Source of the DNA: Spirochaetia bacterium
Lineage (GTDB): Bacteria; Spirochaetota; Spirochaetia; SZUA-6; Bin103
Assembly (NCBI GenBank): GCA_965208575.1
Contig: CBDBOV010000005.1
Coordinates: 320,001-384,000, forward strand
Length of the DNA: 64,000 bases
Direction of reading: 5' to 3'
Under the pieces are notes generated by a model. It saw only the letters and a list, made by a program, of their open reading frames with translations, was not told where the DNA came from and ran no database searches. This document shows positions 49,867 to 64,000 of this stretch, one piece after another (position 1 is the stretch's first letter; each line of letters starts with the position of its first letter). Both the position numbers and the translations under genes were made by a program.

Positions 49867-50811
49867 CTACTTCCGGGCGGCGCCGTAGCGGCCGAGGCGG
49901 CCGCGCAGCCGCGGGTCCAGCAGATCGCGCACCGCGTCGCCGAACATGTTGAGGCTGTACACGACCACGGTCAGGCACAGTCCCGGCCACAGCGCCAGGT
50001 GCGGCGCCATCTCCATGTACTGCCGCCCCTCGCGGCTCAGCATGCCGCCCCAGCTCGGAATGTCCGGCGGCAGTCCGAAGCCCAGGAAGCTCAGCGCCGC
50101 CTCCGACATGATCACCCCGCCCACGTTGATGCTGAAGATGATGATGATGGGCGCGGCGATGTTGGGCAGCACGTGGCGCAGCAGCGAGCGCCGGCGCGAG
50201 CTGCCGATCGCCTGCGCCGCCTGGAAGTAGACGTTCTCCTTCACCCCCAGCACCGCTCCGCGCACCACCCGCGAGGCCGGGATGCCGCCCGACACCCCCA
50301 GCACGATGATGATCTGCGGCATGCCGCGGCCGGCAATCGACATGATGGTGAGCAGCAACAGCAGCCCCGGGAACGCCATCCAGGCGTCGACGAAGCGCTG
50401 CGTCACCAGGTCCAGCCGCCCGCCGATGAAGCCGGTGGTGCCGCCGATCAGCACCGCCACCACGACGTTGAGGGCCGTGGCGGCCAGCCCCACCGTCAAC
50501 GACAGCCGCGCCCCGTGGATGAGGCGGCTCAGCAGGTCACGCCCCACGTGGTCGGTGCCCAGCAGGTACTGGGCCGAGGGGGCCTGCAGACGGTCGCGCA
50601 GGTGGATCTCCTCGTAGCGATAGGGCGCCAGCCCATCGGCGAAGATGCTGACCAGCACCAGGAGCAGGATGACGATGCCGCCGGCGGTGCCCAACGGCTG
50701 CTCACGGACCAGCCGGCCGAAAAACCGCCGCGCTCCAGCCTGCCCAGCCGCAGCCGCGCCGCCCGCGGCCGGCTCGGCGCCGGCCGGCGTCAGCTGTGAT
50801 ACATCACCCAC
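49867..50811 (-). CDS. DppC/OppC-like permease
   Basis: LGTDHVGRD...GDAVRDLLDPR. Confidence 0.95.
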   Translation of the reverse strand: MGDVSQLTPAGAEPAAGGAAAAGQAGARRFFGRLVREQPLGTAGGIVILLLVLVSIFADGLAPYRYEEIHLRDRLQAPSAQYLLGTDHVGRDLLSRLIHGARLSLTVGLAATALNVVVAVLIGGTTGFIGGRLDLVTQRFVDAWMAFPGLLLLLTIMSIAGRGMPQIIIVLGVSGGIPASRVVRGAVLGVKENVYFQAAQAIGSSRRRSLLRHVLPNIAAPIIIIFSINVGGVIMSEAALSFLGFGLPPDIPSWGGMLSREGRQYMEMAPHLALWPGLCLTVVVYSLNMFGDAVRDLLDPRLRGRLGRYGAARK

Positions 50812-50820
50812 GCGCGTGCC

Positions 50821-51777
50821 TCATTCGTAGCGAATCCGCGGGTCCAGCGACGCGTACAGCAGGTCGGTCAGCAGGTTGACAAGCACCACCACCGTGGCGA
50901 AGAACAGATTCACCGCCGACACTACCGGGTAGTCGCGGTCGTTGAGGGCGTCCAGCATCAGCCTCCCCAGCCCCGGCAGGTTGAAGATGTTCTCGATGAT
51001 CACCGAGCCGCCCACCAGGATCGGCAACTGCATGCCCACCAGCGTCACCACCGGGATGATCGCGTTCTTGACGGCGTGGCGCAGGATCACCGACCGCTCC
51101 AGCAGACCCTTGGCCCAGGCGGTCCTGACGTAGTCCTGCCGCAGCACCTCCAGCATCATGGTGCGCGTCATGCGCATGGTGCTGGCCGCCAGGTAGGTGC
51201 CGAGGATCAGGCTCGGGATCAGGAACATGCCGAGGTTGCCCAATGGGTCTTCGGAGAACGGAATCAATTCCATCGGCGGCGACCACGTCCACCAGATGGC
51301 CGGGTAGATCATCACCATCGTGCCCAGCCAGAAGTTGGGCGTCGCCAGCCCCATGATGGCGGCCGACCGCCCCAGGTAGTCGGCGGCGGTGTACTGGCGC
51401 ACCGCCGAGTAGATGCCCACCGGCAGGGCGATGACCAGGCCGATGAGGATGGCCATAACACCGAGTTCGAACGTGACCGGCAGTCGTCCCAGCATGCGCT
51501 CCTCGATGCGCCAACCGCCCAGAAGCGACTCGCCGAGCGTGCCGCGCAGGACGATGCCGCCGATCCAGCGGCCGTACTGCACGTGGATCGGGAGGTTCAG
51601 GCCGAGCCGCTGTTCGATGGTCGCGCGGTCGACCTGGCCGCCGACGAATGCCGTGCGACCGGCCATGATGTCGATGACGTCGCCGGGGATGAAGCGGACG
51701 GACAGGAACACCAGCACGCTCAGGATGAACAGGGTGGGGACGACCAGTAGCAGCCGGCGAATGATGTACGCTCTCAT
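50821..51777 (-). CDS. DppB/OppB-like permease
   Basis: MRAYIIRRLL... Confidence 0.95.
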   Translation of the reverse strand: MRAYIIRRLLLVVPTLFILSVLVFLSVRFIPGDVIDIMAGRTAFVGGQVDRATIEQRLGLNLPIHVQYGRWIGGIVLRGTLGESLLGGWRIEERMLGRLPVTFELGVMAILIGLVIALPVGIYSAVRQYTAADYLGRSAAIMGLATPNFWLGTMVMIYPAIWWTWSPPMELIPFSEDPLGNLGMFLIPSLILGTYLAASTMRMTRTMMLEVLRQDYVRTAWAKGLLERSVILRHAVKNAIIPVVTLVGMQLPILVGGSVIIENIFNLPGLGRLMLDALNDRDYPVVSAVNLFFATVVVLVNLLTDLLYASLDPRIRYE

Positions 51778-51941
51778 ATCTTCGTGGCACTAATCAGCCC
51801 GTGGCGAACTCCAGGCTGCATTCGAGCGCCGCGCTCGGTGCGACGCCGGGTTCCACCACGGGCTGCTCTGGCGCCGGGAAGCTCGGGCCTCCCGGCGCCC
51901 TGCTGTGCAAGCAGAACGAGCGCGCCCCAGGGGCGATCGAT

Positions 51942-53771
51942 TCAGAATCCCATTTCTCGCTTCAGATCCTGGTCGATCCAGAGGCGGGCGAGGATGGGAT
52001 GATACGTCAGGTCTCCTAGCGAGTATTCACCGTTATAGCCCTTGACCCACGGATTGTTCGCCTGAAACTGTGGCGCCAGAGGACCCCAAATCTGCATGTG
52101 TTGCTCGAGCACGAACATATTGTACGCTTTCGCTGCCTCGAACTGCTCCTCTTTGGTCGTAGCAGCGTAATAGGCATCGGAGGCCGCGTCCAGCACGGAG
52201 GTGTCGATTGCGCATGGGTCGCTACAGGCCAAGTATTCGCGGGGGAACAGATTGCTATCGCGATGAGTCTGCATGGCCCAGACAGCAGCCGGATGGCCCA
52301 TGTCGCCAGTGGCCATTTCATACGCGGTTTCTGCCTTGGCAGCCACCCAAGTCCCCGTGTCGGCAATACGGGTCGTTATATCAACGCCAATATCAGCCCA
52401 GTACCCGGCGGCGACTTCCGTATAGCCCAAGTCTATGACGTCTCGGTGCAAATACTCTGCCGTGAATCGAATTCCGTCCGCGCCGCGCGGATAGCCTGCC
52501 TCATCCAGGAGCTTCTCGGCACCCTCCGGGTCATACCTGTAGTATTGCTGGAGCTCTTCTGGCCACTCTTCAAATGGGGTGTAGTGCCCCTTGGCGCTAA
52601 TCCACGCAGGGTCTTCCCAGTCTGAAAAACCGCCAAAGTAGGTATCGTCAATCGTCTCCAGATCGAGTGCCATCTGCAGTGCGTGGCGCACCCTGACGTC
52701 GTCAAATGGCGCGTTGCGAATGTTCAGAGTAAAGACCTGAAACGCCCGCTGGTAGTAACTGTACACCTCGATTTCCGGGTTGGTCCTCTGGATGCTCCTT
52801 ATCACGTCCATGTTTCCTATGTCAGCGACCCCTGCGTGTTGTATGATATCAATCTTACCCGTACGCAGTGCCGAGATACGGGTTGCTTCTTCTGCCATGA
52901 GGGGGGCCCTTATCTCGTCAACATAGGGCAAGCGGTTCTCCGGGTATTTCTCGTCGTAGTCCCAGAAGTCAGGATTCCTGGTAAAGGTCTTGGAGACGCC
53001 CTCGACATACTCGGTCAGGATAAGAGGCCCGGTGCCGACCACGTTCTTCCAGTCCTCATAGTTGCCGTAATGCTCGATTACGTCGCGGGGTAGTATCCAA
53101 CTCTGGCTTTCACCGAGGATCGGTTGTAGCGCATCGAGGTATGGCTCAGTGAGCTTCATAACAACCGTATATCTGTCGGTGGCCTCTATCGATTCCCATG
53201 GCAGGTTGAACGTGGGGCCGGCCTGAGCGGGAGGTTCGGTGAAGTCCCCCTGAGCGGTCTGGCGCTGATAGGAATAGACGACATCATCGGCGGTCAGCTC
53301 CCGACCGTTTACCAACCGACTGGCCTCACTGTCCGGATCAAGAGCGTAGTGAACGCCCTGGCGGATGTGAAAGACGTAGGTCACCGGGTCGGGCGTCTCC
53401 CAGCTTTCCGCCAGATTCCCGGTCAGGACGTGGGTAGGAACGAAATTGTCCGTCCAGTCGAATACTTCCCTATCCAGTGCCCAGTCCCCGATGGCGAGCT
53501 TCTCATTGACACCGTCTATGAGCCAGCCCGCTTCGAAGCCAACAGCAAAGGGGTCTACATTGTCGCTTACCCTACCACCCCAGCCGTAGGTCAGTGTCCC
53601 GCCGTACTCCGGCGCGGTCACCATCTTTCCGGTGGCGGGGTCCATCACCATTTCCTTCTCCATGGCGGCTGCCGGCTCCTGTTCGGCGGCCGGGCTTGCC
53701 CACAGGCCGGTCGCGGCCACACCGAAACCGATCAGTACCGCCAGGGTCTTTCGCAAGACTGCGTATTGCAT
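51942..53771 (-). CDS. ABC substrate-binding protein family 5 (SBP6)
   Basis: MQYAVLRK...TGLWASP; AGGAGG RBS; family motifs. Confidence 0.95.
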   Translation of the reverse strand: MQYAVLRKTLAVLIGFGVAATGLWASPAAEQEPAAAMEKEMVMDPATGKMVTAPEYGGTLTYGWGGRVSDNVDPFAVGFEAGWLIDGVNEKLAIGDWALDREVFDWTDNFVPTHVLTGNLAESWETPDPVTYVFHIRQGVHYALDPDSEASRLVNGRELTADDVVYSYQRQTAQGDFTEPPAQAGPTFNLPWESIEATDRYTVVMKLTEPYLDALQPILGESQSWILPRDVIEHYGNYEDWKNVVGTGPLILTEYVEGVSKTFTRNPDFWDYDEKYPENRLPYVDEIRAPLMAEEATRISALRTGKIDIIQHAGVADIGNMDVIRSIQRTNPEIEVYSYYQRAFQVFTLNIRNAPFDDVRVRHALQMALDLETIDDTYFGGFSDWEDPAWISAKGHYTPFEEWPEELQQYYRYDPEGAEKLLDEAGYPRGADGIRFTAEYLHRDVIDLGYTEVAAGYWADIGVDITTRIADTGTWVAAKAETAYEMATGDMGHPAAVWAMQTHRDSNLFPREYLACSDPCAIDTSVLDAASDAYYAATTKEEQFEAAKAYNMFVLEQHMQIWGPLAPQFQANNPWVKGYNGEYSLGDLTYHPILARLWIDQDLKREMGF

Positions 53772-54263
53772 CTTTGCCTCCTGCAATTCGAGAGTGCCGG
53801 TCTCACTGTGCATCCGTCGCCCACTCTCGACGCGCACCGGCAATCTCCGGTGCCCGGAAAGCGACGGCGACAGCCCCGAGCTACATCGACATCCGGCACC
53901 TCCTTGAACGCGCGCGCGGACCTGAGCCCGGAGCACCGCGTGAGGCGGTGTGCTGCGGCGTAGCGAAAGTCAGGGACCGGCAACGTCGGCGGTGCGGTGT
54001 GCAGGCGGTCGGAGGAGCGGCGGTGCGGCCGAAGCGGCGCGCGGGGCGATCAGCCGGAGCGACTATTGCTTGTGATTCAGGTATTTGCCGGGGGGGGGTA
54101 GGACACACCGGGTCCCGTTAACCGGTGGCGTCCTCAAGTGCCTGTGGTATTGCATCGTCCACATAAGCCTGTTCTCCGACAGAGGGGCATCATAAGCCAC
54201 GCGCAACGGGCTGTCAAATCGCGCGGAGCACGACCCTGCGGCACTGCTCAATCCGCGAAGATC
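53772..54263 (-). promoter_or_regulatory. Conserved leader type B (copy 1): promoter, uORF, structured RNA
   Basis: TTGACA(54217-54212)-N17-TATGAT(54194-54189); highly similar to 58843-59343 and 62764-63222. Confidence 0.8.
54063..54164 (-). CDS. Putative leader peptide of SBP6
   Basis: MWTMQYHRHLRTPPVNGTRCVLPPPGKYLNHKQ*; frame conserved in three copies. Confidence 0.55.
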   Translation of the reverse strand: MWTMQYHRHLRTPPVNGTRCVLPPPGKYLNHKQ

Positions 54264-54510
54264 TCGTGAAACGGAGTTTGGTACGGGAGGAGTATTCCGG
54301 TGGTAACGCTCGTCGTGCAAGGACACTACTCGGTCGTCCGATCCGTTCGCGTCCGTCTGCCCGTTGCCAACTCGCGACCCGTTCGAGTCCCAACCTCGAT
54401 GCCCGTGCACACGCGCGGCGGGCGGTCAAGCGCCTTCAGCACGCGTTCTCTCTTGACCTCTTGACCGCGCCATCTGCCCTCTGTTCGATGCAACATGCTA
54501 CACTGCAGCC

Positions 54511-54765
54511 ATGATCAGCCGTGGCATTCGCGCCTATATGGCTCGCGAGTGGCGAACGGCGCGTGCTGCCAAGGACGCGTATTGGGCCGAGCGCATCGCC
54601 CGTTGCGGACCGCTGGAAGGACTGCGCATCGCCGACGAGTTGCGCAGGCAAGCACTGCTGCACAACCCGGAATGGCCGGATGCCGCCGCCCGGAAGCAGG
54701 ACCTCCTCGCTCACATACGCTTGGCCGAGTTGTTCACCCGTGCCGATTCCACCCGCCGCAGTTGA
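54511..54765 (+). CDS. Small hypothetical protein, probable antitoxin-like partner
   Basis: 84 aa, overlaps the downstream nucleotidyltransferase. Confidence 0.65.
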   Translation: MISRGIRAYMAREWRTARAAKDAYWAERIARCGPLEGLRIADELRRQALLHNPEWPDAAARKQDLLAHIRLAELFTRADSTRRS

Positions 54766-55330
54766 ACTGCTGACCGCACTGGCAAAGGTGCTCGCTGGCC
54801 GCGGGAGCTGGTACGTGTTCGGCGCCCAGGCAGTGATCGCGTACGGCGTGCCCCGTTTGAGCGCCGACGTCGACGTCACCGTCAGGCTGGAACCTGACGA
54901 TCCACAGCGGTTCGCATCCGCGATGCAGGCGGCGGGGTTCGTCTTGCGTGTCGAGGATCCGGAGTTCATCCGCCGGACTCGGGTGATGCCGTTCGTGCAC
55001 GCCGCCACCGGCATGCCGCTGGACATCGTGCTGGCAGGATCCGGACTGGAGGACGAATTCCTCCAGCGCACCCGGACGGTGGACCTCGGCGGCACGGCTG
55101 TCCCGTTGATCGCTCTCCAGGACCTCATCATTGCCAAGCTTCTCGCCAGCCGCCCCCAGGATCTCGCCGACGCGCAGAGCCTGTGGCGCATCCACGGGCA
55201 CAGCCTCGACGTACACTCGATTCGTCGGACACTGCGCTTGCTCGAAGAGGCGCTGGATCAAAGCGACCTGCTGCCGAGCTTCGACTCGATTCGCAGGACG
55301 GCCCGTGACGGGGAGCAATCGCCCCTGTAG
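54740..55330 (+). CDS. Nucleotidyltransferase (DUF6036-like)
   Basis: WYVFGAQAV..YG.PR.SADVD, DLIIAK...RPQDLAD. Confidence 0.82.
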   Translation: MPIPPAAVELLTALAKVLAGRGSWYVFGAQAVIAYGVPRLSADVDVTVRLEPDDPQRFASAMQAAGFVLRVEDPEFIRRTRVMPFVHAATGMPLDIVLAGSGLEDEFLQRTRTVDLGGTAVPLIALQDLIIAKLLASRPQDLADAQSLWRIHGHSLDVHSIRRTLRLLEEALDQSDLLPSFDSIRRTARDGEQSPL

Positions 55331-55384
55331 TGAGCAGCAACAGCAGCCCCGGGAACGCCATCAAGGCGTCCACGAAGCGCTGCG

Positions 55385-55669
55385 TCACCGGATCCAGCCG
55401 GCGAGGTCGCCTTCCACCAGCGACTCGATCAGCTTGCCCCACTGCCCGTTGAACAGCTCGTCCAGCTTGTACATGCGCCGGTCGGCTGCGCGTGTCTGCC
55501 GCGTGATCAGTTCATCGGTCGCCTGCAACCGCCGGTCGGTCTCCTGCATTTGGCGGTCGGTCGCCTGCATGCGCCGCTCAGCCTCCTGCTGCGCTGCGGA
55601 GATCTCCCGGAGAATCTCCCAGATCTCCTGCGGGGTCGCGGGTTCGCTGTGTCCGTTGCGGTCGGTCAT
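55385..55669 (-). pseudogene. Truncated coiled-coil protein (DUF3782/PD-(D/E)XK-associated N-terminus)
   Basis: ETDRR-type heptads then GQWGKLIESLVEGDL, after which it runs into permease-derived sequence. Confidence 0.65.
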
Positions 55670-55759
55670 CGGTACGCTCGCTCATCCCATTGTGGAGCAG
55701 ACCGACCGTTCCGGTAAAGCCGCCGGAGCAATCAAGCAATCAATCGAGAGTCGACTCCT

Positions 55760-55865
55760 CTACTTCTCGGCCGGCGCCTGCGCGGCCGAGGCGGCCGCGC
55801 AGGCGGGCGTCCAGCAGGTCGCGCACCGCGTCGCCGACCGGCGTCCGCGGTGATACGTCACCCAC
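55760..55865 (-). pseudogene. Internally deleted DppC-like permease
   Basis: 5' start (GTGGGTGACGTATCA) fused at ~55837 to the 3' end GDAVRDLLDARLRGRLGR; compare 49867-50811. Confidence 0.85.
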
Positions 55866-55874
55866 GAGCGCACC

Positions 55875-56831
55875 TCATTCGTAGCGGATGCGCGGGTCCA
55901 GCGACGCGTACAGCAGGTCGGTCAGCAGGTTGACCAACACCACCACCATGGCGAAGAACAGATTCACCGCCGATACCACCGGGTAGTCGCGGTCGCCCAG
56001 CGCGTCCAGCATCAGCCGCCCCAGCCCCGGCAGGTTGAAGATGTTCTCGATGATCACCGAGCCGCCCACCAGGATCGGCAGCTGCATGCCCACCAGCGTC
56101 ACCACCGGGATGATGGCGTTCTTCACCGCGTGGCGCAGGATCACCGACCGCTCCAGCAGACCCTTGGCCCAGGCCGTGCGAATGTAGTCCTGGCGCAGCA
56201 CCTCCAGCATCATGGTGCGCGTCATGCGCATGGTGCTGGCCGACAGGTAGGTCCCGAGGATCAGGCTGGGGATGAGGAACATGCGGAGATTGCCCAGTGG
56301 GTCCTGGGCGAACGGCACCAGTTCCATCGGTGGCGACCAGGTCCACCAGATGGCGGGGTAGATCATCACCATGGTTCCCAGCCAGAAGTTGGGCGTCGCC
56401 AGCCCCATGATGGCCACCGACCGTCCCACGTAGTCGGCGACGGTGTACTGGCGCACCGCCGAGTAGATGCCTACCGGCAGGGCGATGACCAGGCCGATGA
56501 GAATGGCCAGCAGCCCGAGCTCGGCGGTGACCGGCAGTCGTACCAGCATGCGCTCCTCGATGCGCCAACCGCCAAGCAGCGACTCGCCGAGGGTGCCGCG
56601 CAGCAAAATATCTCCGATCCAGCGTCCATACTGCACGTAGACAGGCACGTCTAATCCCAGCATGCGCTCAAGAGCTTCACGGTCAACTTCGCCGCCGACA
56701 GATAACATACGACCGGCCATGATGCCGATGACGTCGCCTGGGAGGAAGCGGACCGACAGGAACACCAACACGCTCAGAATGAACAACGTGGGGATGACCA
56801 GCAGCAGCCGCCGGATGATGTAGGCTCTCAT
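55875..56831 (-). CDS. DppB/OppB-like permease
   Basis: Close paralogue of 50821-51777. Confidence 0.95.
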   Translation of the reverse strand: MRAYIIRRLLLVIPTLFILSVLVFLSVRFLPGDVIGIMAGRMLSVGGEVDREALERMLGLDVPVYVQYGRWIGDILLRGTLGESLLGGWRIEERMLVRLPVTAELGLLAILIGLVIALPVGIYSAVRQYTVADYVGRSVAIMGLATPNFWLGTMVMIYPAIWWTWSPPMELVPFAQDPLGNLRMFLIPSLILGTYLSASTMRMTRTMMLEVLRQDYIRTAWAKGLLERSVILRHAVKNAIIPVVTLVGMQLPILVGGSVIIENIFNLPGLGRLMLDALGDRDYPVVSAVNLFFAMVVVLVNLLTDLLYASLDPRIRYE

Positions 56832-57003
56832 ATCCTCGTGGCAAACAAAATGGGCGCCGGGAAGCTCAAGGCTCCCGGCGCCATTCTCTGCAGGTAGAAC
56901 AAGTGCGAAACGCTCGCGGACCCCGCTGACAGCTAGGCGTGGTCCCGGCTCGTGGAATCGCGCAGCGACTCCCGTTTCACTCGCCCAAGGGCGATTGACT
57001 TGC

Positions 57004-58842
57004 TCAGAATCCCATTTCTTCCTTTAGATCTTGGTCAATCCAAAGGTGGATGAGGACGCTCTTTGTTCCCGCATCCAGCACGTCCATTTCGCCGTTCCAG
57101 CCTTTCACCCACGGCTGGGCCAGCTGATAAAACGGAGCCATGGGAGGCCAAATCTGATTGTGCTGCTTTATCCCGAGCATATCAAACTCTTTGAATGCCC
57201 TCTGCTGCTCCTCAAGGGTGGTAGCGGCGAAAAAGGCTTCATAGGCGGCGGTCATCTCAGCGGTCTCGACATACCCGCCGATGTAATCGCGGCTAAATGG
57301 GCTCTCATCGCGATACCAGGCCATCAACTTTGAAGGGGCGAGATTAAAGCCCATGTCGCCAGTGGACATCTCATAGACAAGCTCTCCTGTATCACTGAAC
57401 GCCGAATGGCCCCTCCGACCGGCCCACGTAGCCGTGTCAACTATATTGATCGTTACATCAACGCCAATCGCAGCCCAGTAGCTTATGGCCACCTCTGGCC
57501 AGCCAATATCCCAGACATCGCGGTGGTCATAGGTGACCTTGAATCGAACGCCTTCCGCGCCGCGCGGATATCCAGCCTCATCGAGGAGCTTCTCGGCACC
57601 TTCCGGGTCATAGCGCCAGTATTGCTTGACCTCCTCGGGCCACTCTTCAAATGGGCTTCTATACTCCGGGAAGGCAAACCCTATCATCCCCATGGGTTCA
57701 GGCCTTGCGAAACCGCCAAAGAAGGTATCGTTAATCGTCTCGAGGTCCAGTGCCATCTGCATAGCGTGGCGTACCCTGACGTCGTCAAAAGGCGGCTTGT
57801 ACATGTTCAGTATGAAAGCACCACTCCCCCGCAGAAAATAGGGGCCCACCTGGATGTCGGGGTTGGTATTCTGGAGGCTCCTCAAAACGTCGCGGGATGT
57901 TATGGCAGCGCCGCCGCCGCCGGCGAAATGTATCATATCAACCTTACCCGTGCGTAGCGCCGCGATACGTGTTGCTTCTTCTTCCATATGCAGGCCCCGC
58001 AGCTTGTCAATATAGGGCAAGCGGTTCTCCGGGTATTTTGGGTCGTGGCCCCAGTAGTCAGGATTCTTGTCCCAGGTAGTCGAGACGCCTTCGACATAGT
58101 CAGTCAGCATAATGGGTCCGGTGCCGACCACGTTTCTCCAGTCCTTATAGTGGCCGTATTGCTCAATTACCTCGGGGGGCAGTATCCAACCCTGTTGGTC
58201 GGCGTGGATCGCCGTCAGCGCAGTGAGGTATGGTTCGGTCAGCTTGAATACAACCGTATATTTGTCGCTGGCCTCTATCGATTGCCATGGCAGGTTGATC
58301 AACTCGTAAGTCTGGAGGGGACGTTCGGTGAAGTCGCCTAGAACTACATTACGCTGAAAGGTATACACGACATCATCGGCAGTTAGCTCTCGACCATTCA
58401 TCGGTGGCTTATCATGCCAGTGAACGCCCTGGCGGATTTTGAAGATAATAGTTAGTGGGTCGGGCTGCTCCCAGCTTTCCGCCAGCCACCCTCTAGTTGC
58501 AGCTTCAATAAAGGTGAATGAGGTGGAAAAGTCCCATACGTCCCTATCTATTGCCCAGTCCCCCCAGGCGAGCTTCTCATTAACGGTACCGATCAGGTAT
58601 TCAACAGGGTGGCCAGTAATAAAGGGGTCACTAGTGTCGCTCACTGCTTTGTAGGGATAGGTTAGTGTTCCGCCATACTCCGGCGCGGTCACCACCTTGC
58701 CGGTGGCAGGGTCCATCACCATTTCCTTGTCCATGGCGGCGGCGGGCTCCTCTTCCCCGGCCGGGCTTGCCCACAGGCCGGTCGCGGCCAGACCGAGACC
58801 GATCAGTACCGCCAGTATCCTTCGCAAGATTGCATATTGCAT
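57004..58842 (-). CDS. ABC substrate-binding protein family 5 (SBP7)
   Basis: MQYAILRR...TGLWASP; family motifs. Confidence 0.95.
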   Translation of the reverse strand: MQYAILRRILAVLIGLGLAATGLWASPAGEEEPAAAMDKEMVMDPATGKVVTAPEYGGTLTYPYKAVSDTSDPFITGHPVEYLIGTVNEKLAWGDWAIDRDVWDFSTSFTFIEAATRGWLAESWEQPDPLTIIFKIRQGVHWHDKPPMNGRELTADDVVYTFQRNVVLGDFTERPLQTYELINLPWQSIEASDKYTVVFKLTEPYLTALTAIHADQQGWILPPEVIEQYGHYKDWRNVVGTGPIMLTDYVEGVSTTWDKNPDYWGHDPKYPENRLPYIDKLRGLHMEEEATRIAALRTGKVDMIHFAGGGGAAITSRDVLRSLQNTNPDIQVGPYFLRGSGAFILNMYKPPFDDVRVRHAMQMALDLETINDTFFGGFARPEPMGMIGFAFPEYRSPFEEWPEEVKQYWRYDPEGAEKLLDEAGYPRGAEGVRFKVTYDHRDVWDIGWPEVAISYWAAIGVDVTINIVDTATWAGRRGHSAFSDTGELVYEMSTGDMGFNLAPSKLMAWYRDESPFSRDYIGGYVETAEMTAAYEAFFAATTLEEQQRAFKEFDMLGIKQHNQIWPPMAPFYQLAQPWVKGWNGEMDVLDAGTKSVLIHLWIDQDLKEEMGF

Positions 58843-59343
58843 CTTTGCCTCCTGCAATCCGAGAGTGCTGGTCTCACTGTGCATCCGTCGCCCACTCTCG
58901 AGGCGCACCGGCAATCTCCGGTGCCCGGAAAGCGACGGCGACAGCCCCGAGCTACATCGAAATCCGGCACCTCCTTGATCGCGCGCGCGGACCTGAGCCC
59001 GGAGCACCGCATGAGGCGGTGTGCTGCGGCGTAGCGAAAGTCAGGGACCGGCAACGCCGGCGGTGCGGTGTGCAGGTGGTAAGAGGAACGGTGCAGGCGA
59101 AGCGGCGCGCGGGGCTATCGGCCGGAGCGATTATTGCTTGTGATTCAAGTATTTGCCGGAGGGGGGGTAGGACACACCAATCCCGTCAACCGGTGGCGTC
59201 CTCAAGTGCTTCTGGTAGTGCATCGTCCACATAAGCCTTTTCGCCGACAGGAGGGCCAAGTCTATTCCACGCGCAACGAGCTGTCAAATCGCGCGGAGCA
59301 CGACGAGCACGACCCTGCCGCGCTGCTCAATCCGCGAAGATCT
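58843..59343 (-). promoter_or_regulatory. Conserved leader type B (copy 2)
   Basis: TTGACA(59287-59282)-N17-TAGACT(59264-59259). Confidence 0.8.
59131..59232 (-). CDS. Putative leader peptide of SBP7
   Basis: MWTMHYQKHLRTPPVDGIGVSYPPSGKYLNHKQ*. Confidence 0.55.
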   Translation of the reverse strand: MWTMHYQKHLRTPPVDGIGVSYPPSGKYLNHKQ

Positions 59344-59495
59344 TGTTGGTGTCGAGGTTCAGTCCCGCCAACAGCGGCGATGTCGGGCGCTGCCCTTCCG
59401 GGTAGCGCTGCACCGGCTCGAAGTCATGCTGGGCGAGCGCCAGCACCTCGATGGTGCGAGCTTCGGCTACCACCCAGTACTCGGCCACGCCGTCT
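59327..59495 (-). pseudogene. C-terminal fragment of Uma2 (DUF820) endonuclease
   Basis: GVAEYWVV...RTIEVLAL...SPLLAGLNLD..KIF. Confidence 0.8.
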
Positions 59496-59514
59496 TGCTT
59501 TCCCGGTGCAATCA

Positions 59515-59557
59515 GACATATTGTTACCACTTATAAATCAAGTGGAGACAATTTGTC
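59515..59557. promoter_or_regulatory. Inverted-repeat operator upstream of AbiEi
   Basis: GACATATTGTTACCACTT-N7-AAGTGGAGACAATTTGTC (15/18 match). Confidence 0.7.
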
Positions 59558-59568
59558 TGAGCCGGACC

Positions 59569-60162
59569 ATGCAAGAACGACCTGAAGAGATCTTCCGCCG
59601 GCACGGCGGCCAGCTCCGCATGAGCGAAGCCCTGGCGCACGGGATGACGCGCTACACCCTCTATGCGCTGAGGGACCGGGGCGTTGTCGAGCTGGTGAGC
59701 CGGGGCATCTACCGGCTGGTGGAACTGCCTCCCATTGGCAACCCGGACCTGGTCACGGTGAGCCTACGCTTCCCGAACGCCGTGATCTGTCTCGTCTCCG
59801 CGCTGGCCTTTCACGACATCACGACCCAGATCCCCCATGAGGTCTCCGTGGCGGTGCCACGGGCATCGCGTGTGCCGTCGCTGGACTATCCGCCCGTCCG
59901 GGCGTACCGATTCTCCGCGGAAACCTACCGACCCGGCATCGAAGCCCATCGCATCGATGGCGCGACGGTAAAGGTCTACAACAGCGGGAAGACCCTGGTC
60001 GACTGCTTCAAGTTCCGCAACAAGATCGGCATGGACGTGGTGCTGGAGGCGCTCAAACTCCACAAGGAACGAAACGGCTTCGATGTTCGGGTACTGCTTG
60101 GCTACGCCAAGGTCTGCCGGATGGAGAAGGTGATGCGGCCCTATCTGGAGGCCACCGTATGA
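59569..60162 (+). CDS. Type IV TA antitoxin AbiEi family
   Basis: RGIYRL, ICLVSALAFHDITTQIP, KTLVDCFKFRNKIG. Confidence 0.92.
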   Translation: MQERPEEIFRRHGGQLRMSEALAHGMTRYTLYALRDRGVVELVSRGIYRLVELPPIGNPDLVTVSLRFPNAVICLVSALAFHDITTQIPHEVSVAVPRASRVPSLDYPPVRAYRFSAETYRPGIEAHRIDGATVKVYNSGKTLVDCFKFRNKIGMDVVLEALKLHKERNGFDVRVLLGYAKVCRMEKVMRPYLEATV

Positions 60163-60678
60163 CGGCACTCCGCAACGTACCCGCGTCGGTGCGGCAACGA
60201 CGTCGGGTACGGCGACGTGGTATATCCCGCACCCGAGGCGGCGGACCTTCCGACCATGCTGGACTTCCCGGCGCCGCGGCTGCTCTGCTACAGCCGCGAA
60301 TCCTGCATTGCGGAAAAGCTCGAAGCCGCGGTCAAGCTCGGCATGCTGAACAGCCGGATGAAGGACTTCTACGACATCTGGCTGCTGTCCCGTCAGTTCG
60401 ACTTCGATGGGTCCGAGTTGGCCGCGGGCATTCGGCGCACTTTCGAGCGTCGGGGAACGGCGCTTCCCGTGGCAATCGAGGCATTCACCCAGCCCTTCAT
60501 CGATTCCAAGCAGATTCGATGGATGGCGTTCCGGAACAGGCTCCAGTAGGATCATGTCCCCGCCTCGTTCACCGACATTGTGGCCGCGATGGCCGGCTTC
60601 CTGTCGCCCATCGTCGCGGCCGTTTCCTCCCGCCAACCCGTTCCGAACCACTGGACCGCACCCGGCCCGTGGACCTGA
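60159..60678 (+). pseudogene. AbiEii nucleotidyltransferase toxin, deleted and interrupted
   Basis: Start NVPASVRQR jumps out of frame to DVGYGDVV..AEKLEA..NSRMKDFYD; premature TAG at 60547; residual frame ends at 60678. Confidence 0.85.
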
Positions 60679-60974
60679 GTGTCCGGTGTCTGCGCGCCCT
60701 CCTGGCGGGCGGTGAGGCGTACCCGGATGCGACCCGCTGGCTCGTCACGCTTGACTTCCGCGCCGCGGCGCCTGCCGGACACCGTGAAACTGGGCGGCCG
60801 CGCCCAGTTGGCTGCTCGAAGACTGGTGATCCTGACCCGGGCGGCGCCGTAGCGGCCGAGGCGGCCGCGCAGGCGCCGCAGGCGGGGGTCCACCAAGCCG
60901 AGCGCCGCTGCAATGCAAGTCGGCGCAGGCGCGCCAGGCGCGCCTGCAATGGAACCCGCCCCTGGGCGGTTTCC

Positions 60975-62763
60975 TCAGAATCCCATTTCTCGCTTCAGAT
61001 CCTGGTCAATCCAGAGGCGGGCGAGGATGGTATGAAACAGAAAGTTTCCCATCCTGGTTTCACCGTTAAAACCTTTCACCCACGGTTGGCTGGCCTGATA
61101 ACTTGGAGCCAGAGGAAGCCCTATGTTATTGTGCTGCGTCATTAACGCCATACCAAACTGTTTTGCCGCCATTATCTGATCATCGATGCTGGTGGCGGCG
61201 AAAAAGGCAGCTTGGGCGGCGGCCAGATCAGGGTTCTCGACTCCGCCCATCCATTCACTTTGGTAAGGGACCTCGGAGCCATACGCCGACATGCTCGGGG
61301 TCGGGATCTCCCTGGCCATGGCGCCATAAATCGACTCATAGTTTTGTTCTGACCAATAACCGGTCAAAGTCCCCCAGTCGGCCGTACCAATCGTTACATC
61401 AACGCCAATATCATCCCAGTAGCCGGCGGCTATTTCTATAATGCCCAGATCTGCGATGTCGCGGTGCAGATGTTCGAACTTGAAGCGGACGCCGTCGGCG
61501 CCGCGCGGATATCCTGCCTCATCAAGGAGCCTCTCCGCACCTTCCGGGTCGTAGGTGTAGTATTGCTTGAGTTCTTCGGGCCACTCTTCCCATTCGGTGT
61601 AATACCCCTTGGCGCCAAGGTAGCGAGGTGGGTGCCACTGGGCGAAACCGCCATAGTAGGTATCGTTGATCGTCTCCAGGTCCAATGCCATCTGCAGTGC
61701 GTGGCGTACTCTGATGTCGTCAAAGGGGGCGTTGCGTATGTTCAGACTGAAAGCATCCGCCCGTTGGAAAAATGGCCATATCGCGATCTCGGGGTCGGTC
61801 CGCTGCAGGCTCCTTACCACGTCGATGGACTTTATCTCATTACCAGCGAGGCGTATCATATCAATCTTACCCGAGCGCAGTGCCGATAAGCGGGTCGCTT
61901 CTTCCGCTATATGCAGGGCCATCAGCTCGTCGACATAGGGCAGGCGGTTGTCCGGGTATTTTGGGTCGTAGCCCCAGTAGTCAGGATTCTTGGCATAGGT
62001 CTTGGAGACGCCTTCGACATAGTCAGTCAGAATGAGGGGCCCGGTGCCGACCACGTTCTGCCAATCCTTGTAGTCGCCGTATTGCTCGATTACCTCGGGG
62101 GGGTAATATCCAGAACAAGTGTTCGGCGATGATAGCCTCTAGCGCACCGAGGGAGGGCTCCATCAACTTCATGACAACCGTGTATTCGTCGGTGTCCTCG
62201 ATCGATTCCCATGGCAGATCGACAGCGGCAGTGGTACGTACAGGACGTTCGGTAAAGTCACCCTGAGCGGTAATGCGCTGATAGGTATAGACGACATCAT
62301 CGGCAGTGAGCTCGCGCCCGTTCACCGGTGCCTTGTTATGCCAGTGAACGCCCTGACGGATGTGAAAGACGTACGTTAGTGGGTCGGGCGTTTCCCAGCT
62401 TTCCGCCAGCTCCCCGGTGTAAGTAAACAGAGGAACGTAAGGCCCATCAAAGCCGAATTCTTTCCTATCCAGACCCCAGTCCCCGACGGCGAGTCTCTCA
62501 TTGACACCGTCTATGAGAAAGCCCGCATAGGCGCCGGCACTAAAGGGGTCGGCAGTTTCGCCAATCAAGACATACGAAACGATCAACGTCCCGCCGTACT
62601 CTGGCGCGGTCACCATCTTGCCGGTGGCGGGGTCCCTCACCATCTCCTTCTCCGTGGCGGCGGCCGGCTCCTCTTCGCTGGCCGGGCTTGCCCACAGGCC
62701 GGTGGCGGCCAGACCGAAACCGATCAGTACCGCCAGGATGTTTCGCAAGACTGCGTATTGCAT
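60975..62763 (-). pseudogene. ABC substrate-binding protein family 5 (SBP8), frameshifted in a homopolymer
   Basis: Two ORFs joined at G7 62097-62103; the paralogue SBP7 has G6 at the same WILPPEV position. Confidence 0.88.
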
Positions 62764-63222
62764 CTTTGTCTCCAAAAAATTCGAGAGTGCTGGTCTCGCT
62801 GTGCATCCGTCGCCCACTCTCGATGCGCACCGGACATCTCCGGTGCCCGGAAAGCGACGGCGCCAGCCCCGAGCTACATCGACATCCGGCACCTCCTTGA
62901 ACGCGCGCGCGGACCTGAGCCCGGAGCACCGCATGAGGCGGTGTGGCGAAAGTGAGGGACCGGCAACGCCGACGGTGCGGTGTGCAGGTGGTAAGAGGAG
63001 CGGTGCAGGCGAAGCGGCGCGCGGGGCGATCAGCCGGAGCGATTATTGCTTGTGATTCAAGTATATACCGGGGGGGGGGGGGTAGGACACACCTATCCCG
63101 TCAACCGGTGGCGTCCTCAAGTGCTTCTGGTATTGCACCGTGAACATAAGCCTTTTCGCCGACAGAGAACGAGTCTATTCCACGCGCAACGAGCTGTCAA
63201 GTCGCGCGGAGCACGACGAGCA
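62764..63222 (-). promoter_or_regulatory. Conserved leader type B (copy 3)
   Basis: TTGACA(63200-63195)-N17-TAGACT(63177-63172). Confidence 0.8.
63043..63147 (-). CDS. Putative leader peptide of SBP8
   Basis: MFTVQYQKHLRTPPVDGIGVSYPPPPGIYLNHKQ*; C13 tract. Confidence 0.55.
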   Translation of the reverse strand: MFTVQYQKHLRTPPVDGIGVSYPPPPGIYLNHKQ

Positions 63223-63306
63223 CGACGCGTCGCCGCCGGGTATTGGGCTGATATTGGCGTTGTGTGCCCGGTAAACCTCGGCGGTAGAGGCGTTGATCCA
63301 CCTGGG

Positions 63307-63708
63307 ATGACAACCAGAATCGCGGTAGAATATGTCAAGAAGTATGAGGTGCCAGAAATGAGGTTTCAGGAATTCGTCCGGGACCAAGTGTTCTCTCCGT
63401 CGCTCATCGCCGACGAGCTGCGTACCACCAAGTCCGAGATCGCCGGCACGCTGGGCCTCGGCAAGGATGCGTTCACCCGCGCGTCGCGGGTCCGGGCGCG
63501 CAAGACGCAGGTCCGGTTGCGCCAGATGCTGGAGATTCTCAATCGCGTGGAAACGGCAACCGGATCGCCGCTCGCGGCTTACGCCTGGTTCCGGGCCGAG
63601 CCGCTGCCGGGGTTCGGCGGCGCTACCCCCGATCTTCTGGTGCGCGAAGGCAGGGCCGACCAGGTGCATGCCTATCTGGACCGCATCATGGCCGGCGGCT
63701 ATGCCTGA
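63307..63708 (+). CDS. Xre/MbcA-like antitoxin (DUF2384)
   Basis: AYAWFRAEPLPGFGGATPDLLV..GR...V..YL; start may be ATG 63358. Confidence 0.85.
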   Translation: MTTRIAVEYVKKYEVPEMRFQEFVRDQVFSPSLIADELRTTKSEIAGTLGLGKDAFTRASRVRARKTQVRLRQMLEILNRVETATGSPLAAYAWFRAEPLPGFGGATPDLLVREGRADQVHAYLDRIMAGGYA

Positions 63709-63723
63709 GTCTGCATTGTCCTG

Positions 63724-64000
63724 ATGCGGTTCCGGGCGCTGGTGTACCGGGCTCACAATCCACAGTGGTCCTGGACGCCGATATCCGGCGAGGGTGCCCG
63801 CCGTCACGGCGGACGATTCAACCGCCGCGGGGTGCCGGCGCTCTACACCTCGCTCGCCCCGCTCGTCGCCATCCGCGAAGCGCAGCCGTTTGGCCGGCCG
63901 ATGCAGCCGCTCACCCTGTGCGCGTACGAGGTCGATGCACAGCCGGTGTTCGATGCACTGGACCAGGAGCGGCGCCGGGCGTTGGGGGTGACGGAGTCCG
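63724..64000 (+). CDS. RES domain toxin, partial
   Basis: MRFRALVYRAHNPQW...SGEGARRHGGRFNRRGVPALYTSL. Confidence 0.9.
   Translation, partial: MRFRALVYRAHNPQWSWTPISGEGARRHGGRFNRRGVPALYTSLAPLVAIREAQPFGRPMQPLTLCAYEVDAQPVFDALDQERRRALGVTES

What the first reader, a model, noticed from the sequence alone, without database searches (positions are those of the whole stretch)
54063..63147. Frame-preserved poly-proline leader peptide in the three type-B leaders
Seen: MWTMQYHRHLRTPPVNGTRCVLPPPGKYLNHKQ* (54164-54063), MWTMHYQKHLRTPPVDGIGVSYPPSGKYLNHKQ* (59232-59131) and MFTVQYQKHLRTPPVDGIGVSYPPPPGIYLNHKQ* (63147-63043). Tracts of 10 and 13 nt differ by one codon, and the 9-nt tract is compensated by a +1 nt insertion just upstream. 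Synonymous swaps occur (CTG/TTG, ATT/ATA, GGC/GGT, TAG/TAA). The SBP3 uORF starts similarly (MRTMH). Inference: translated leader peptide; PP/PPP motifs are known ribosome-pausing signals. Caveats: weak SD, several non-synonymous changes, only three related copies.
Basis: partly seen in the sequence, partly recalled or inferred. Interest (0 to 1): 0.8.

Follow-up and report, generated by a model that had tools for sequence, protein, structure and literature searches.

The report
Proline-run leader ORFs before transporter operons
The three short reading frames are real and belong to a large family of conserved leader sequences placed before nutrient-uptake operons, but only their first 22 codons and a length-unstable run of C bases are conserved, not the whole peptide.

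Summary
Three minus-strand ORFs of 33, 33 and 34 codons sit at the stated coordinates, each crossing a C tract of 9, 10 or 13 nt.

The claim of frame preservation does not hold outside the trio. In 13 type-B copies from four species of the genus, the window's stop is in frame in 4, and in the other two frames in 4 and 5. Orthologous copies differ by tract changes that are not multiples of 3.

What is conserved is a leader about 410 nt long:
- a near-consensus sigma-70 promoter;
- an ATG 53 nt after the -35 hexamer;
- about 22 open codons that contain a hairpin;
- a hypervariable poly-C tract;
- a C-rich, G-poor stretch;
- a start-stop mini-ORF;
- the strong SD of an SBP_bac_5 gene.

Type B is a divergent branch of a family with 68 cores in this genome, 56 of them upstream of SBP paralogues. 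A relative has 107 matches to the core motif.

Evidence for translation is suggestive but not decisive. Supporting it are start-codon conservation, stop avoidance (P 0.009-0.07), SD-like enrichment, and the fact that broken ORFs occur only beside truncated SBP genes. Against it, there is no synonymous or codon-position signal.

Best reading (about 0.45): a translated, proline-run leader ORF coupled to a Rho-type attenuator, a new variant of the mgtP kind.

The parts
54189..54217 (-). Leader 1 promoter: TTGACA, 17 nt, TATGAT
   Evidence: 11 of 12 consensus matches; one site found against 0.2 expected in shuffles. The -35 hexamer and spacer are invariant across copies.
54063..54164 (-). Leader 1 uORF, 33 codons (MWTMQYHRHLRTPPVNGTRCVLPPPGKYLNHKQ*)
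   Evidence: The first ~22 codons are conserved in type-B copies; the part after the tract is not.
54101..54133 (-). Hairpin inside uORF codons 11-21 (GGACGCCACCGG ... CCGGTGTGTCC)
   Evidence: 98.2% of 165 cells are paired in 15 copies, against 22-50% when the partner is slid. One pair carries a compensatory change; covariation is not significant (104 of 500 shuffles reach the observed value).
54090..54098 (-). Poly-C tract (C9), read as PPP
   Evidence: 28 of the genome's 55 C/G runs of 8 nt or more lie directly after a leader core.
53950..54098 (-). C-rich, G-poor stretch (rut-like) that begins at the tract
   Evidence: the best 100-nt window has C 49 and G 21. The genome's 99.9th percentile of |C-G| per 100 nt is 29.
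53881..53892 (-). Mini-ORF ATG TCG ATG TAG behind AAGGAGG
   Evidence: A start-stop or 4-codon ORF is present in all 10 aligned type-B leaders.
53789..53829 (-). Conserved stem CGAGAGTG ... CACTCTCG just before the SBP SD
51942..53771 (-). SBP_bac_5 gene 1. Likely start is ATG 53771 (MQYAVLRK..., signal-peptide-like) behind GGAGG
59257..59287 (-). Leader 2 promoter region (TTGACA ... TAGACT)
59131..59232 (-). Leader 2 uORF, 33 codons
59170..59201 (-). Leader 2 hairpin
59158..59167 (-). Leader 2 tract C7TCC
   Evidence: One contig of run X7 carries +GGG here, a change of +3.
58952..58963 (-). Leader 2 mini-ORF region (ATT TCG ATG TAG; only the ATG TAG remains)
57004..58842 (-). SBP_bac_5 gene 2, start ATG 58842
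63170..63200 (-). Leader 3 promoter region
63043..63147 (-). Leader 3 uORF, 34 codons
63085..63116 (-). Leader 3 hairpin
63070..63082 (-). Leader 3 tract C13
   Evidence: One contig of run X3 has one extra letter inside it, a change of +1.
62874..62885 (-). Leader 3 mini-ORF ATG TCG ATG TAG
60975..62763 (-). SBP_bac_5 gene 3, split into two frames in this assembly (62023-62934 and 60975-62054)
   Evidence: Contigs of X3, X7 and X16, but not X1, lack one base at 62097.

Best explanation
Each of the three ORFs is the first element of a cis-regulatory 5' leader of about 410 nt for an SBP_bac_5/ABC-importer operon.

Proposed sequence of events:
1. Transcription starts at a near-consensus sigma-70 promoter.
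2. About 18 nt later, a short ORF starts at a conserved ATG.
3. The ORF runs about 22 codons through a conserved hairpin and enters a poly-C tract. The tract is proline in any frame.
4. The tract opens a pyrimidine-rich, G-poor stretch of 100-150 nt with the composition of a Rho loading (rut) site.
5. The proposed working part is the ribosome's passage into and through the Pro run, which depends on Pro-tRNA and EF-P. That passage decides whether the C-rich RNA behind RNA polymerase is covered or naked.
6. This in turn decides whether Rho or downstream structures let transcription and translation reach the SBP gene.

The peptide sequence, the frame after the tract and the stop used are not important.

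Shown: the anatomy, the size of the family, its link to SBP genes, the tract's hypervariability, and the presence of rho and efp.

Inferred: that the ORF is translated, that the Pro run pauses ribosomes, that Rho acts here, and the sign of the regulation.
For: Anatomy and family:
- Promoter matches 11 of 12 consensus positions.
- The ATG lies 53 nt after the -35 hexamer in 11 of the 16 copies listed. The others lie at 52 (2 copies), 55 (2), 61 (1) and 104 (1; there the regex probably took an upstream motif).
- nhmmer finds 68 cores in this genome. 56 of 68 lie within 1.5 kb upstream of an SBP paralogue on the same strand.
- The core motif has 29, 107, 33, 25, 21 and 3 matches in six genomes of the genus. 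The reversed control gives 0.

Signs of translation:
- A start codon is at the anchor in 64 of 68 cores: 49 ATG, 4 GTG and 11 ATG at +4. In the +4 group the original ATG is lost and the new one restores the RHDDSQRS frame.
- An SD-like G-rich tetramer is present at -16 to -5 in 44 of 64 cores, against 77 of 189 control ATGs in the same leaders.
- 46 of the 48 ORFs that have a nearby C run of 5 or more reach that run.
- In 36 distinct main-type starts with 35% mean pairwise divergence, only 2 carry an in-frame stop, against 35 and 33 in the other two frames. A tree simulation expects 16.5-17.8 (P 0.006-0.009). Counted as independent stop gains, 2 are observed against 5.4 expected (P 0.07).
- All 12 type-B copies before full-length SBP N-termini are open into the tract. 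The two with frame-breaking insertions (L022, L029) precede SBP fragments.

Feasibility of the Rho step:
- 28 of the 55 C/G runs of 8 nt or more in the genome sit right after a core. That zone is about 0.07% of the sequence.
- The best 100-nt windows after the tract have C 45-49 against G 16-21.
- Rho_RNA_bind and EFP domains are present in the genome.

Precedent:
- mgtP is a 17-codon ORF with 3 Pro codons. [quoted passage not shown]
- A PPPPPP motif upstream of a pyrimidine rut makes Rho termination depend on EF-P (PMC5021804, passages read).
Against: - There is no coding signature in the substitutions.
  - Type B: 12 of 48 synonymous against a null of 13.0 (P 0.77); codon positions 13/17/18.
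  - Main type: codon positions 90/100/111 (P 0.22) and 36/43/45 (P 0.32).
  - Main type: the synonymous excess is significant only against a uniform null (P 0.001). It is not significant against an empirical null (P 0.28) or a ts/tv-matched null (P 0.19; BLOSUM P 0.06).
- Nucleotide motifs (ACCGGT twice, and the hairpin) are kept whichever frame reads them.
- Type B is shifted by +1 relative to the MPTMRDHST subtype from codon 8 on, although the DNA is homologous.
- The hairpin is 98% paired, so RNA-level constraint could explain much of the conservation.
- The SD of type B is weak.
- Some copies have almost no Pro run (L004, L016; P0010).
- A ribosome paused on the tract covers only the first ~15 nt of a 100-150-nt C-rich stretch.
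- There is no expression evidence. The metatranscriptome contigs laid (X16) gave about 0 depth on the leaders, which proves nothing.
Confidence: 0.45

Rival explanations
1. Untranslated RNA or DNA element. The conserved unit is a promoter-proximal hairpin plus a poly-C, C-rich Rho-loading or protein-binding stretch. The ORF is incidental in GC-rich sequence.
For: - No codon periodicity or synonymous excess.
- The hairpin is 98.2% paired. One-sided changes are mostly of the G-U type on the sense strand, and there is one compensatory pair.
- The ACCGGT motifs are conserved regardless of frame.
- The frame after the tract is random.
- Long open frames are ordinary here: the longest frame after the tract beats dinucleotide shuffles in only 2 of 41 leaders.
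Against: - Stop avoidance is specific to the ATG frame.
- The ATG sits at a fixed position, and in the GGATC variant a relocated ATG keeps the frame.
- SD-like motifs are enriched.
- Synonymous CCG/CCA/CCC changes at the Pro codon break a stem pair in main-type copies (read from the listing).
- Broken ORFs occur only beside truncated SBP genes.
- There is no Rfam match, even at E = 10.
- The whole-leader fold is no more stable than shuffles (z +0.74).
Confidence: 0.3
2. Contingency (phase-variable) switch. Slippage of the poly-C tract, in DNA or during transcription, changes the frame in which the uORF leaves the tract. Two frames stop within about 60 nt; the third runs on to the mini-ORF or uORF2 stop. 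Each operon would thus be switched stochastically.
For: - Tracts of 5 to 55 nt.
- Near-identical leaders differ by lengths that are not multiples of 3: 55/14/10, 9/12 and 9/20. Orthologous type-B pairs differ by +4 and +7 (read from the alignment).
- Contigs of other samples show +3 in tract 2 and +1 in tract 3.
- In 37 of 41 leaders, two frames close within 63 nt of the tract and the third stays open far longer.
- In type B, the long frame ends exactly at the mini-ORF stop.
Against: - The openness of the long frame is explained by composition (2 of 41 at P<0.05).
- Within-population length heterogeneity could not be seen, because only contigs were available.
- Homopolymer lengths in assemblies can be wrong.
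- The tract is degenerate (interrupted or short) in several apparently intact leaders.
- 15 of 46 ORFs in the long frame is simply one third.
Confidence: 0.15
3. One reading: a conserved peptide of 33-34 residues, with frame and stop maintained by selection.
For: - The three window copies share frame and stop.
- A +3 variant of tract 2 exists in another sample.
- Three further gene-called relatives end in the same frame (KHLHEIH or KYLHEIH type; P0010, P0012, P0013).
Against: - The frame split is 4/4/5 over 13 copies.
- Orthologues give 95 against 39 and 97 against 38 residues.
- A +1 variant of tract 3 exists in another sample.
- The C-terminal residues are not alignable across copies.
Confidence: 0.05
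4. A promoter-bearing dispersed or tandem repeat that spread with, or independently of, the SBP genes and has no regulatory logic beyond supplying a promoter.
For: - Copy number ranges from 3 to 107 among congeneric genomes.
- Tandem arrays of promoter plus ORF-start units occur at about 125-nt spacing.
- 12 of 68 cores have no SBP gene downstream by my criterion.
Against: - Orientation and distance to SBP starts are consistent (56 of 68).
- The ordered modules downstream (tract, early stops, uORF2 or mini-ORF, stem, SD) are conserved.
- No terminal repeats or transposase association was seen; this was not searched systematically.
Confidence: 0.05

Closest known systems
mgtP, the proline-codon-rich leader ORF of the Salmonella mgtCBR operon (and mgtL of mgtA)
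   Same: Both are short ORFs in a long 5' leader of a transporter operon, with consecutive Pro codons near the end and an SD-like sequence about 9 nt upstream. In mgtP the peptide sequence is dispensable apart from the Pro codons. This matches the lack of amino-acid constraint here (PMC3641672, abstract and passages read).
   Different: - Here the Pro codons are a homopolymeric C tract of unstable length (5-55 nt), not three fixed codons.
- The ORF's stop and frame after the tract vary.
- The family has 68 cores in one genome.
- No alternative stem-loops were established.
- There is no sequence relationship to mgtP.
- The response to proline is untested.
Polyproline-then-rut arrangement that makes Rho termination depend on EF-P (reporter of Elgamal and Ibba)
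   Same: In both, a poly-Pro motif is followed by a pyrimidine-rich, G-poor stretch ahead of the expressed gene. In that work, stalling uncoupled translation from transcription and let Rho terminate (PMC5021804, abstract and passages read).
   Different: That construct is artificial and the motif lies inside a translated reporter. Here it is a natural leader whose ORF mostly ends 10-60 nt after the tract. The direction of the effect is unknown.
tnaC / tna operon leader
   Same: A leader-peptide ribosome stalled next to a rut site controls Rho access. This is mentioned in PMC5021804; the details are recalled.
   Different: TnaC stalls at its stop codon in response to tryptophan, through a specific nascent peptide. 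No such peptide conservation is seen here.
Homopolymeric-tract contingency loci (Neisseria, Bordetella, Mycobacterium)
   Same: C/G runs of 8 nt or more whose length differs between close copies and samples (only the search listing was seen, no paper was read).
   Different: Known tracts lie in the regulated gene or in its promoter spacer. Here the tract lies inside an upstream ORF about 320 nt before the gene, and on/off behaviour is not shown.

Membership tests
Proline-codon leader-ORF attenuator (mgtP/mgtL kind) | Short ORF with start codon and SD in the 5' leader of the regulated operon | tested here: met
   Start codon at the anchor in 64 of 68 cores; SD-like motif in 44 of 64. The SD is weak in type B.
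Proline-codon leader-ORF attenuator (mgtP/mgtL kind) | Consecutive Pro codons conserved among homologues | tested here: inconclusive
   Most copies have PP to P18. L004 and L016 have single or interrupted Pro, and P0010 has none after the conserved 22 codons.
Proline-codon leader-ORF attenuator (mgtP/mgtL kind) | ORF is translated | not testable with these tools
   Only indirect evidence: stop avoidance P 0.009-0.07; no synonymous excess.
Proline-codon leader-ORF attenuator (mgtP/mgtL kind) | Mutually exclusive RNA structures or a terminator governed by ribosome position | tested here: inconclusive
   A hairpin inside the ORF is kept. No intrinsic terminator was found. The whole-leader fold is no better than shuffles. 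A C-rich rut-like stretch is present.
Proline-codon leader-ORF attenuator (mgtP/mgtL kind) | Expression responds to proline or EF-P limitation | not testable with these tools
   efp is present; no expression data.
Rho-dependent leader attenuator | Unstructured C-rich, G-poor RNA of about 80 nt or more upstream of the gene, and a rho gene | tested here: met
   C 45-49 against G 16-21 per 100 nt, at or above the genome's 99.9th percentile; a Rho_RNA_bind domain in a 680-aa frame.
Rho-dependent leader attenuator | Rho-dependent 3' ends in the leader | not testable with these tools
   Only contigs of runs were available.
Phase-variable homopolymeric tract (contingency locus) | Tract length varies between close relatives or samples | tested here: met
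Phase-variable homopolymeric tract (contingency locus) | Length heterogeneity within one population, and an expression change with length | not testable with these tools
   Contigs drop rare variants.
Any Rfam RNA family | Covariance-model match | tested here: not met
   No match at gathering score in the whole window. None at E up to 10 in 53850-54350.

The most novel reading that the evidence does not exclude
The poly-C tract is a mutable frame selector inside a translated leader ORF. By slippage in DNA or RNA, each of about 50-100 paralogous uptake operons is set individually. Either its leader ribosome stops just after the tract and leaves the C-rich RNA open to Rho, or it reads on for about 60-200 codons to the mini-ORF or uORF2 stop and shields it. 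A clonal symbiont population would then express a shifting, combinatorial repertoire of transporters.
Probability: 0.15. Interest if true: 0.85.

Novelty: new variant of a known kind. Interest (0 to 1): 0.6.

Why it matters
If the ORFs are translated, this would be the largest family of proline-run leader ORFs known to me in one genome. It has 68 cores here and over a hundred core-motif matches in a relative. It is attached to an extreme expansion of SBP_bac_5 peptide/solute-binding genes (about 124 paralogue starts) in a genus whose DNA is held mostly by runs labelled sponge metagenome.

It would link amino-acid or EF-P status, or stochastic tract slippage, to the choice of uptake systems. 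It offers a natural counterpart to the artificial polyproline-plus-rut reporter.

It is also a caution. A poly-C tract gives poly-proline in every frame, so seeing poly-Pro in an ORF that crosses such a tract says nothing by itself about selection on a peptide.

Tried and rejected
- **Rfam.** Nothing at gathering score in the window and nothing at E up to 10 on leader 1.
- **Plasmid megablast** of 50000-64000: only an irrelevant 58-nt hit.
- **Promoter-pattern scans.** In genome contigs there were 9 stretches, of which only L056 (the same record as G001) carries the leader. In metagenome contigs there were 7 stretches, none with the leader. No homologues were gained outside the genus.
- **Codon-position periodicity:** not significant.
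- **Synonymous excess:** P 0.001 under a uniform null. It vanishes under an empirical null or a ts/tv-matched null. I do not count it as support.
- **Selected long frame from the tract to the mini-ORF or uORF2 stop.** 16 of 20 leaders looked open. Dinucleotide shuffles give frames as long in 39 of 41 leaders. Rejected as evidence.
- **Whole-leader structure:** z +0.74.
- **Long-range pairing of the hairpin's 5' arm with a downstream CCGGTGCGCGTC segment.** Considered and dropped, because that segment is not conserved and forms its own local hairpin.
- **Read laying.** The RNA contigs of X16 cover SBP coding parts but show about 0 depth on the leaders. All runs were contigs, so nothing can be said about transcription, 3' ends or tract heterogeneity.
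- **Literature.** No listed paper combined polyproline leader peptides with solute-binding proteins (0 occurrences of that term in the 12 papers listed). The sponge-symbiont search gave nothing relevant. The phase-variation search gave only classical loci (listing only). Supplementary files were not consulted.

Full report
**1. The observation.**
The C tracts are as follows:
- C9 at 54098-54090, with one extra base a few nt upstream;
- C7TCC at 59167-59158;
- C13 at 63082-63070.

The named synonymous differences are present. The three leaders are about 85% identical over their whole length, promoter and downstream leader included. The ORF is therefore not better conserved than its flanks. A shared frame in three close paralogues has a chance probability of about 1/9.

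**2. Context.**
Each ORF lies in the leader of an operon that begins with a gene of about 610 codons for an SBP_bac_5 solute-binding protein, followed by BPD_transp_1 permeases. The third SBP gene is split into two frames in this assembly.

Leader 1 has these parts:
- Promoter TTGACA-17-TATGAT at 54217-54189, matching 11 of 12 consensus positions.
- The ORF's ATG, 53 nt after the -35 hexamer.
- A hairpin occupying codons 11-21.
- The C tract.
- A C-rich, G-poor stretch. Its best 100-nt window has C 49 and G 21, while the genome's 99.9th percentile of |C-G| is 29.
- A mini-ORF, ATG TCG ATG TAG, behind AAGGAGG at 53892-53881.
- A conserved 8-bp stem at 53829-53789.
- GGAGG plus ATG 53771, which opens a signal-peptide-like MQYAVLRK....

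No Rfam family matches. No intrinsic terminator was found. The leader as a whole folds no better than shuffles (z +0.74).

**3. Homologues of the type-B leader.**
The window is G000:C5:320001-384000.
- The promoter-plus-leader occurs in 16 places in 4 of the 11 genomes of the genus: G000 7, G006 4, G003 4, G001 1.
- Scans of genome contigs and metagenome contigs gave no further true copies.
- In 13 copies where the window's stop position can be aligned, the distance from the ATG to it is 0, 2 or 1 modulo 3 in 4, 4 and 5 copies. ORF lengths are 33-39 or 93-97 codons accordingly.
- Orthologous-looking pairs differ in tract length by amounts that are not multiples of 3. L005 against L031 gives 95 and 39 codons. 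L004 against L027 gives 97 and 38 codons.
- Contigs of other samples show +3 in tract 2 (X7) and +1 in tract 3 (X3).
- A profile search of 1.84 billion representative proteins found 8 gene-called relatives at E up to 0.001. Most share the first ~22 residues (P0011 matches only the downstream part). After the tract they diverge, and one (P0010) has no proline run.

The 33-codon peptide as a unit is therefore not conserved. The first ~22 codons are:
- All 12 copies before full-length SBP N-termini are open into the tract.
- The two copies with 1-nt insertions that bring a TGA into frame (L022, L029) sit before SBP fragments, residues 117-228 and 213-270.

**4. The wider family.**
This genome has about 124 paralogue starts of this SBP type (143 tblastn pieces). 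Of its 55 C/G homopolymers of 8 nt or more, 30 lie 280-950 nt upstream of such a start, reading as poly-C on the mRNA strand. 28 lie directly after a leader core, a zone covering about 0.07% of the sequence.

A profile built from 23 of these contexts finds 68 cores. 56 are upstream of an SBP paralogue on the same strand. Four further cores lie in this window, at about 3231, 3367, 19407 and 37509.

The deduced ORFs form recognisable subtypes:
- M[PV]MKRHDDSQRSDRLAVTQPVH-Pn;
- MMTRHDDSQRS..;
- M[PR]TMR[DN]HSTQRCYQLTQPV-Pn;
- MRMMHDDPYPRSHW..;
- MRIMRHHDRL..;
- type B.

Type B is homologous at the DNA level to the MPTMRDHST subtype, but it is shifted by +1 from codon 8 on.

The 23-nt core motif, allowing up to 3 mismatches, occurs 29, 107, 33, 25, 21 and 3 times in six genomes of the genus. 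It occurs once each in two genomes of the sister genus. The reversed control gives 0 in all 24 genomes. Some copies form tandem arrays of promoter plus ORF-start units about 125 nt apart.

**5. Is the ORF translated?**

Evidence for:
- A start codon at the anchor in 64 of 68 cores. In the 11 cores where GGATG has become GGATC and one base is inserted, an ATG four nt further on restores the same downstream frame.
- SD-like G-rich tetramers in 44 of 64 cores, against 77 of 189 control ATGs.
- 46 of 48 ORFs reach the nearby C run.
- Stop avoidance. 2 of 36 distinct main-type sequences carry an in-frame stop, against 35 and 33 in the other frames. The neutral expectation is 16.5-17.8 (P 0.006-0.009). 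Counted as independent gains, 2 are observed against 5.4 expected (P 0.07).

Evidence against:
- Codon positions 90/100/111 and 36/43/45, not significant.
- pN/pS is 0.67 in frame, against 0.92 and 1.11 out of frame.
- The synonymous excess disappears under realistic nulls.
- Type B alone shows nothing: 12 of 48 synonymous, P 0.77.
- The hairpin is 98.2% paired in 15 copies, with one compensatory pair. RNA-level selection is therefore real and confounds the question.

Lack of peptide constraint is what the mgtP precedent would predict, since scrambling that peptide is tolerated. It is equally what a non-coding element predicts.

**6. After the tract.**
- Tract lengths of 7 nt or more are spread evenly over the residues modulo 3: 10, 14 and 12.
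- 15 of 46 ORFs are in the long frame.
- In 37 of 41 leaders, two frames close within 63 nt of the tract and the third runs far.
- That long frame is no longer than shuffles give in 39 of 41 leaders. I do not claim selection for it.
- In main-type leaders, the long frame ends in a second conserved mini-ORF, MILKEPHARAA. There are 17 exact copies plus about 20 variants among 64 pattern matches. In type B this is reduced to a start-stop.

**7. Mechanism.**
I commit, at about 0.45, to a translated proline-run leader ORF. Its ribosome's progress into the tract sets the accessibility of the poly-C, C-rich RNA to Rho. rho and efp are both present.

The sign of the effect is open. A ribosome stalled on the tract could mask the best Rho entry site, as in tna. 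Alternatively it could uncouple from RNA polymerase and expose the downstream C-rich RNA, as in the EF-P reporter.

Rivals:
- an untranslated hairpin-plus-rut element (0.3);
- a phase-variable frame switch (0.15);
- the literal conserved-peptide reading (0.05);
- a promoter-bearing repeat without further logic (0.05).

**8. Comparison and novelty.**
It works like mgtP/mgtL-type proline-sensing leader ORFs, with elements of tna and of homopolymeric contingency loci. It is not a sequence relative of any of them.

The distinctive features are:
- a homopolymeric, length-unstable proline run;
- an indifferent frame and stop;
- two upstream ORFs per leader;
- the copy number;
- the exclusive link to one expanded SBP family.

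I found no description of this in three literature searches or in one search on sponge symbionts. I rate it a new variant of a known kind, with interest 0.6.

Noticed in passing
window 60975-62934 (-): The third SBP gene is split into two overlapping frames (62023-62934 and 60975-62054). Contigs of runs X3, X7 and X16 lack one base at 62097, while X1 matches the window. The break is therefore specific to this assembly or its source population.
   Followed up: partly
whole genome G000: There is an extreme expansion of one SBP_bac_5 type: 143 tblastn pieces and about 124 paralogue starts in a 6.5-Mb genome of 67.3% GC. Many lie in clusters of ABC operons.
   Followed up: partly
G000 genome-wide, e.g. 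G000:C4:380160 region (L008); A second conserved mini-ORF, MILKEPHARAA (11 codons), follows an SD-like site about 100 nt before the SBP start in main-type leaders. There are 17 exact copies plus about 20 variants. Its 3' half overlaps a GC-rich inverted repeat.
   Followed up: partly
window 53881-53892, 58952-58963, 62874-62885 (-): A start-stop or 4-codon mini-ORF (ATG TAG, or ATG TCG ATG TAG) follows AAGGAGG in all 10 aligned type-B leaders. In leader 2 the first ATG is ATT, so only ATG TAG remains.
   Followed up: partly
G000:C6:950833-951181; G000:C4:537834-538026; G005:C4:2048951-2049729: Tandem arrays of up to about 7 units of roughly 125 nt occur upstream of some leaders. Each unit has a TTGACA promoter and the start of the leader ORF. 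GTGAC-type micro-repeats lie between units.
   Followed up: no
G000:C4:509488-509542: A homopolymer of 55 G (poly-C on the mRNA strand) lies in a leader whose near-identical paralogues have 14 and 10. This is either an extreme expansion or an assembly artefact.
   Followed up: no
window about 54218-54240, 59288-59320, 63201-63230 (-): A 9-nt unit, GTCGTGCTC, just upstream of the -35 hexamer varies in copy number. Leader 1 has one unit fewer than leaders 2 and 3, a G006 copy has three, and a contig of X3 carries one extra unit behind 54225.
   Followed up: partly
window 53789-53829 and equivalents (-): The loop of the conserved stem before the SBP SD holds an ATG (..GACGGATGCAC..) in frame with the SBP gene, 14 codons upstream of the MQYAV start. 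Its context resembles the leader ORF's own start context.
   Followed up: no
window 54436-55191 and 59764-60651 (-): ORFs of 251 and 295 codons lie between the operons and have no Pfam match at E 0.001. They may be the ends of the upstream operons or spurious frames in GC-rich DNA.
   Followed up: no
The only titled record that carries the leader calls its organism a Spirochaetia bacterium (a 7.0-Mb MAG chromosome). The runs that hold the window are labelled sponge metagenome or carry coded organism names.
   Followed up: no
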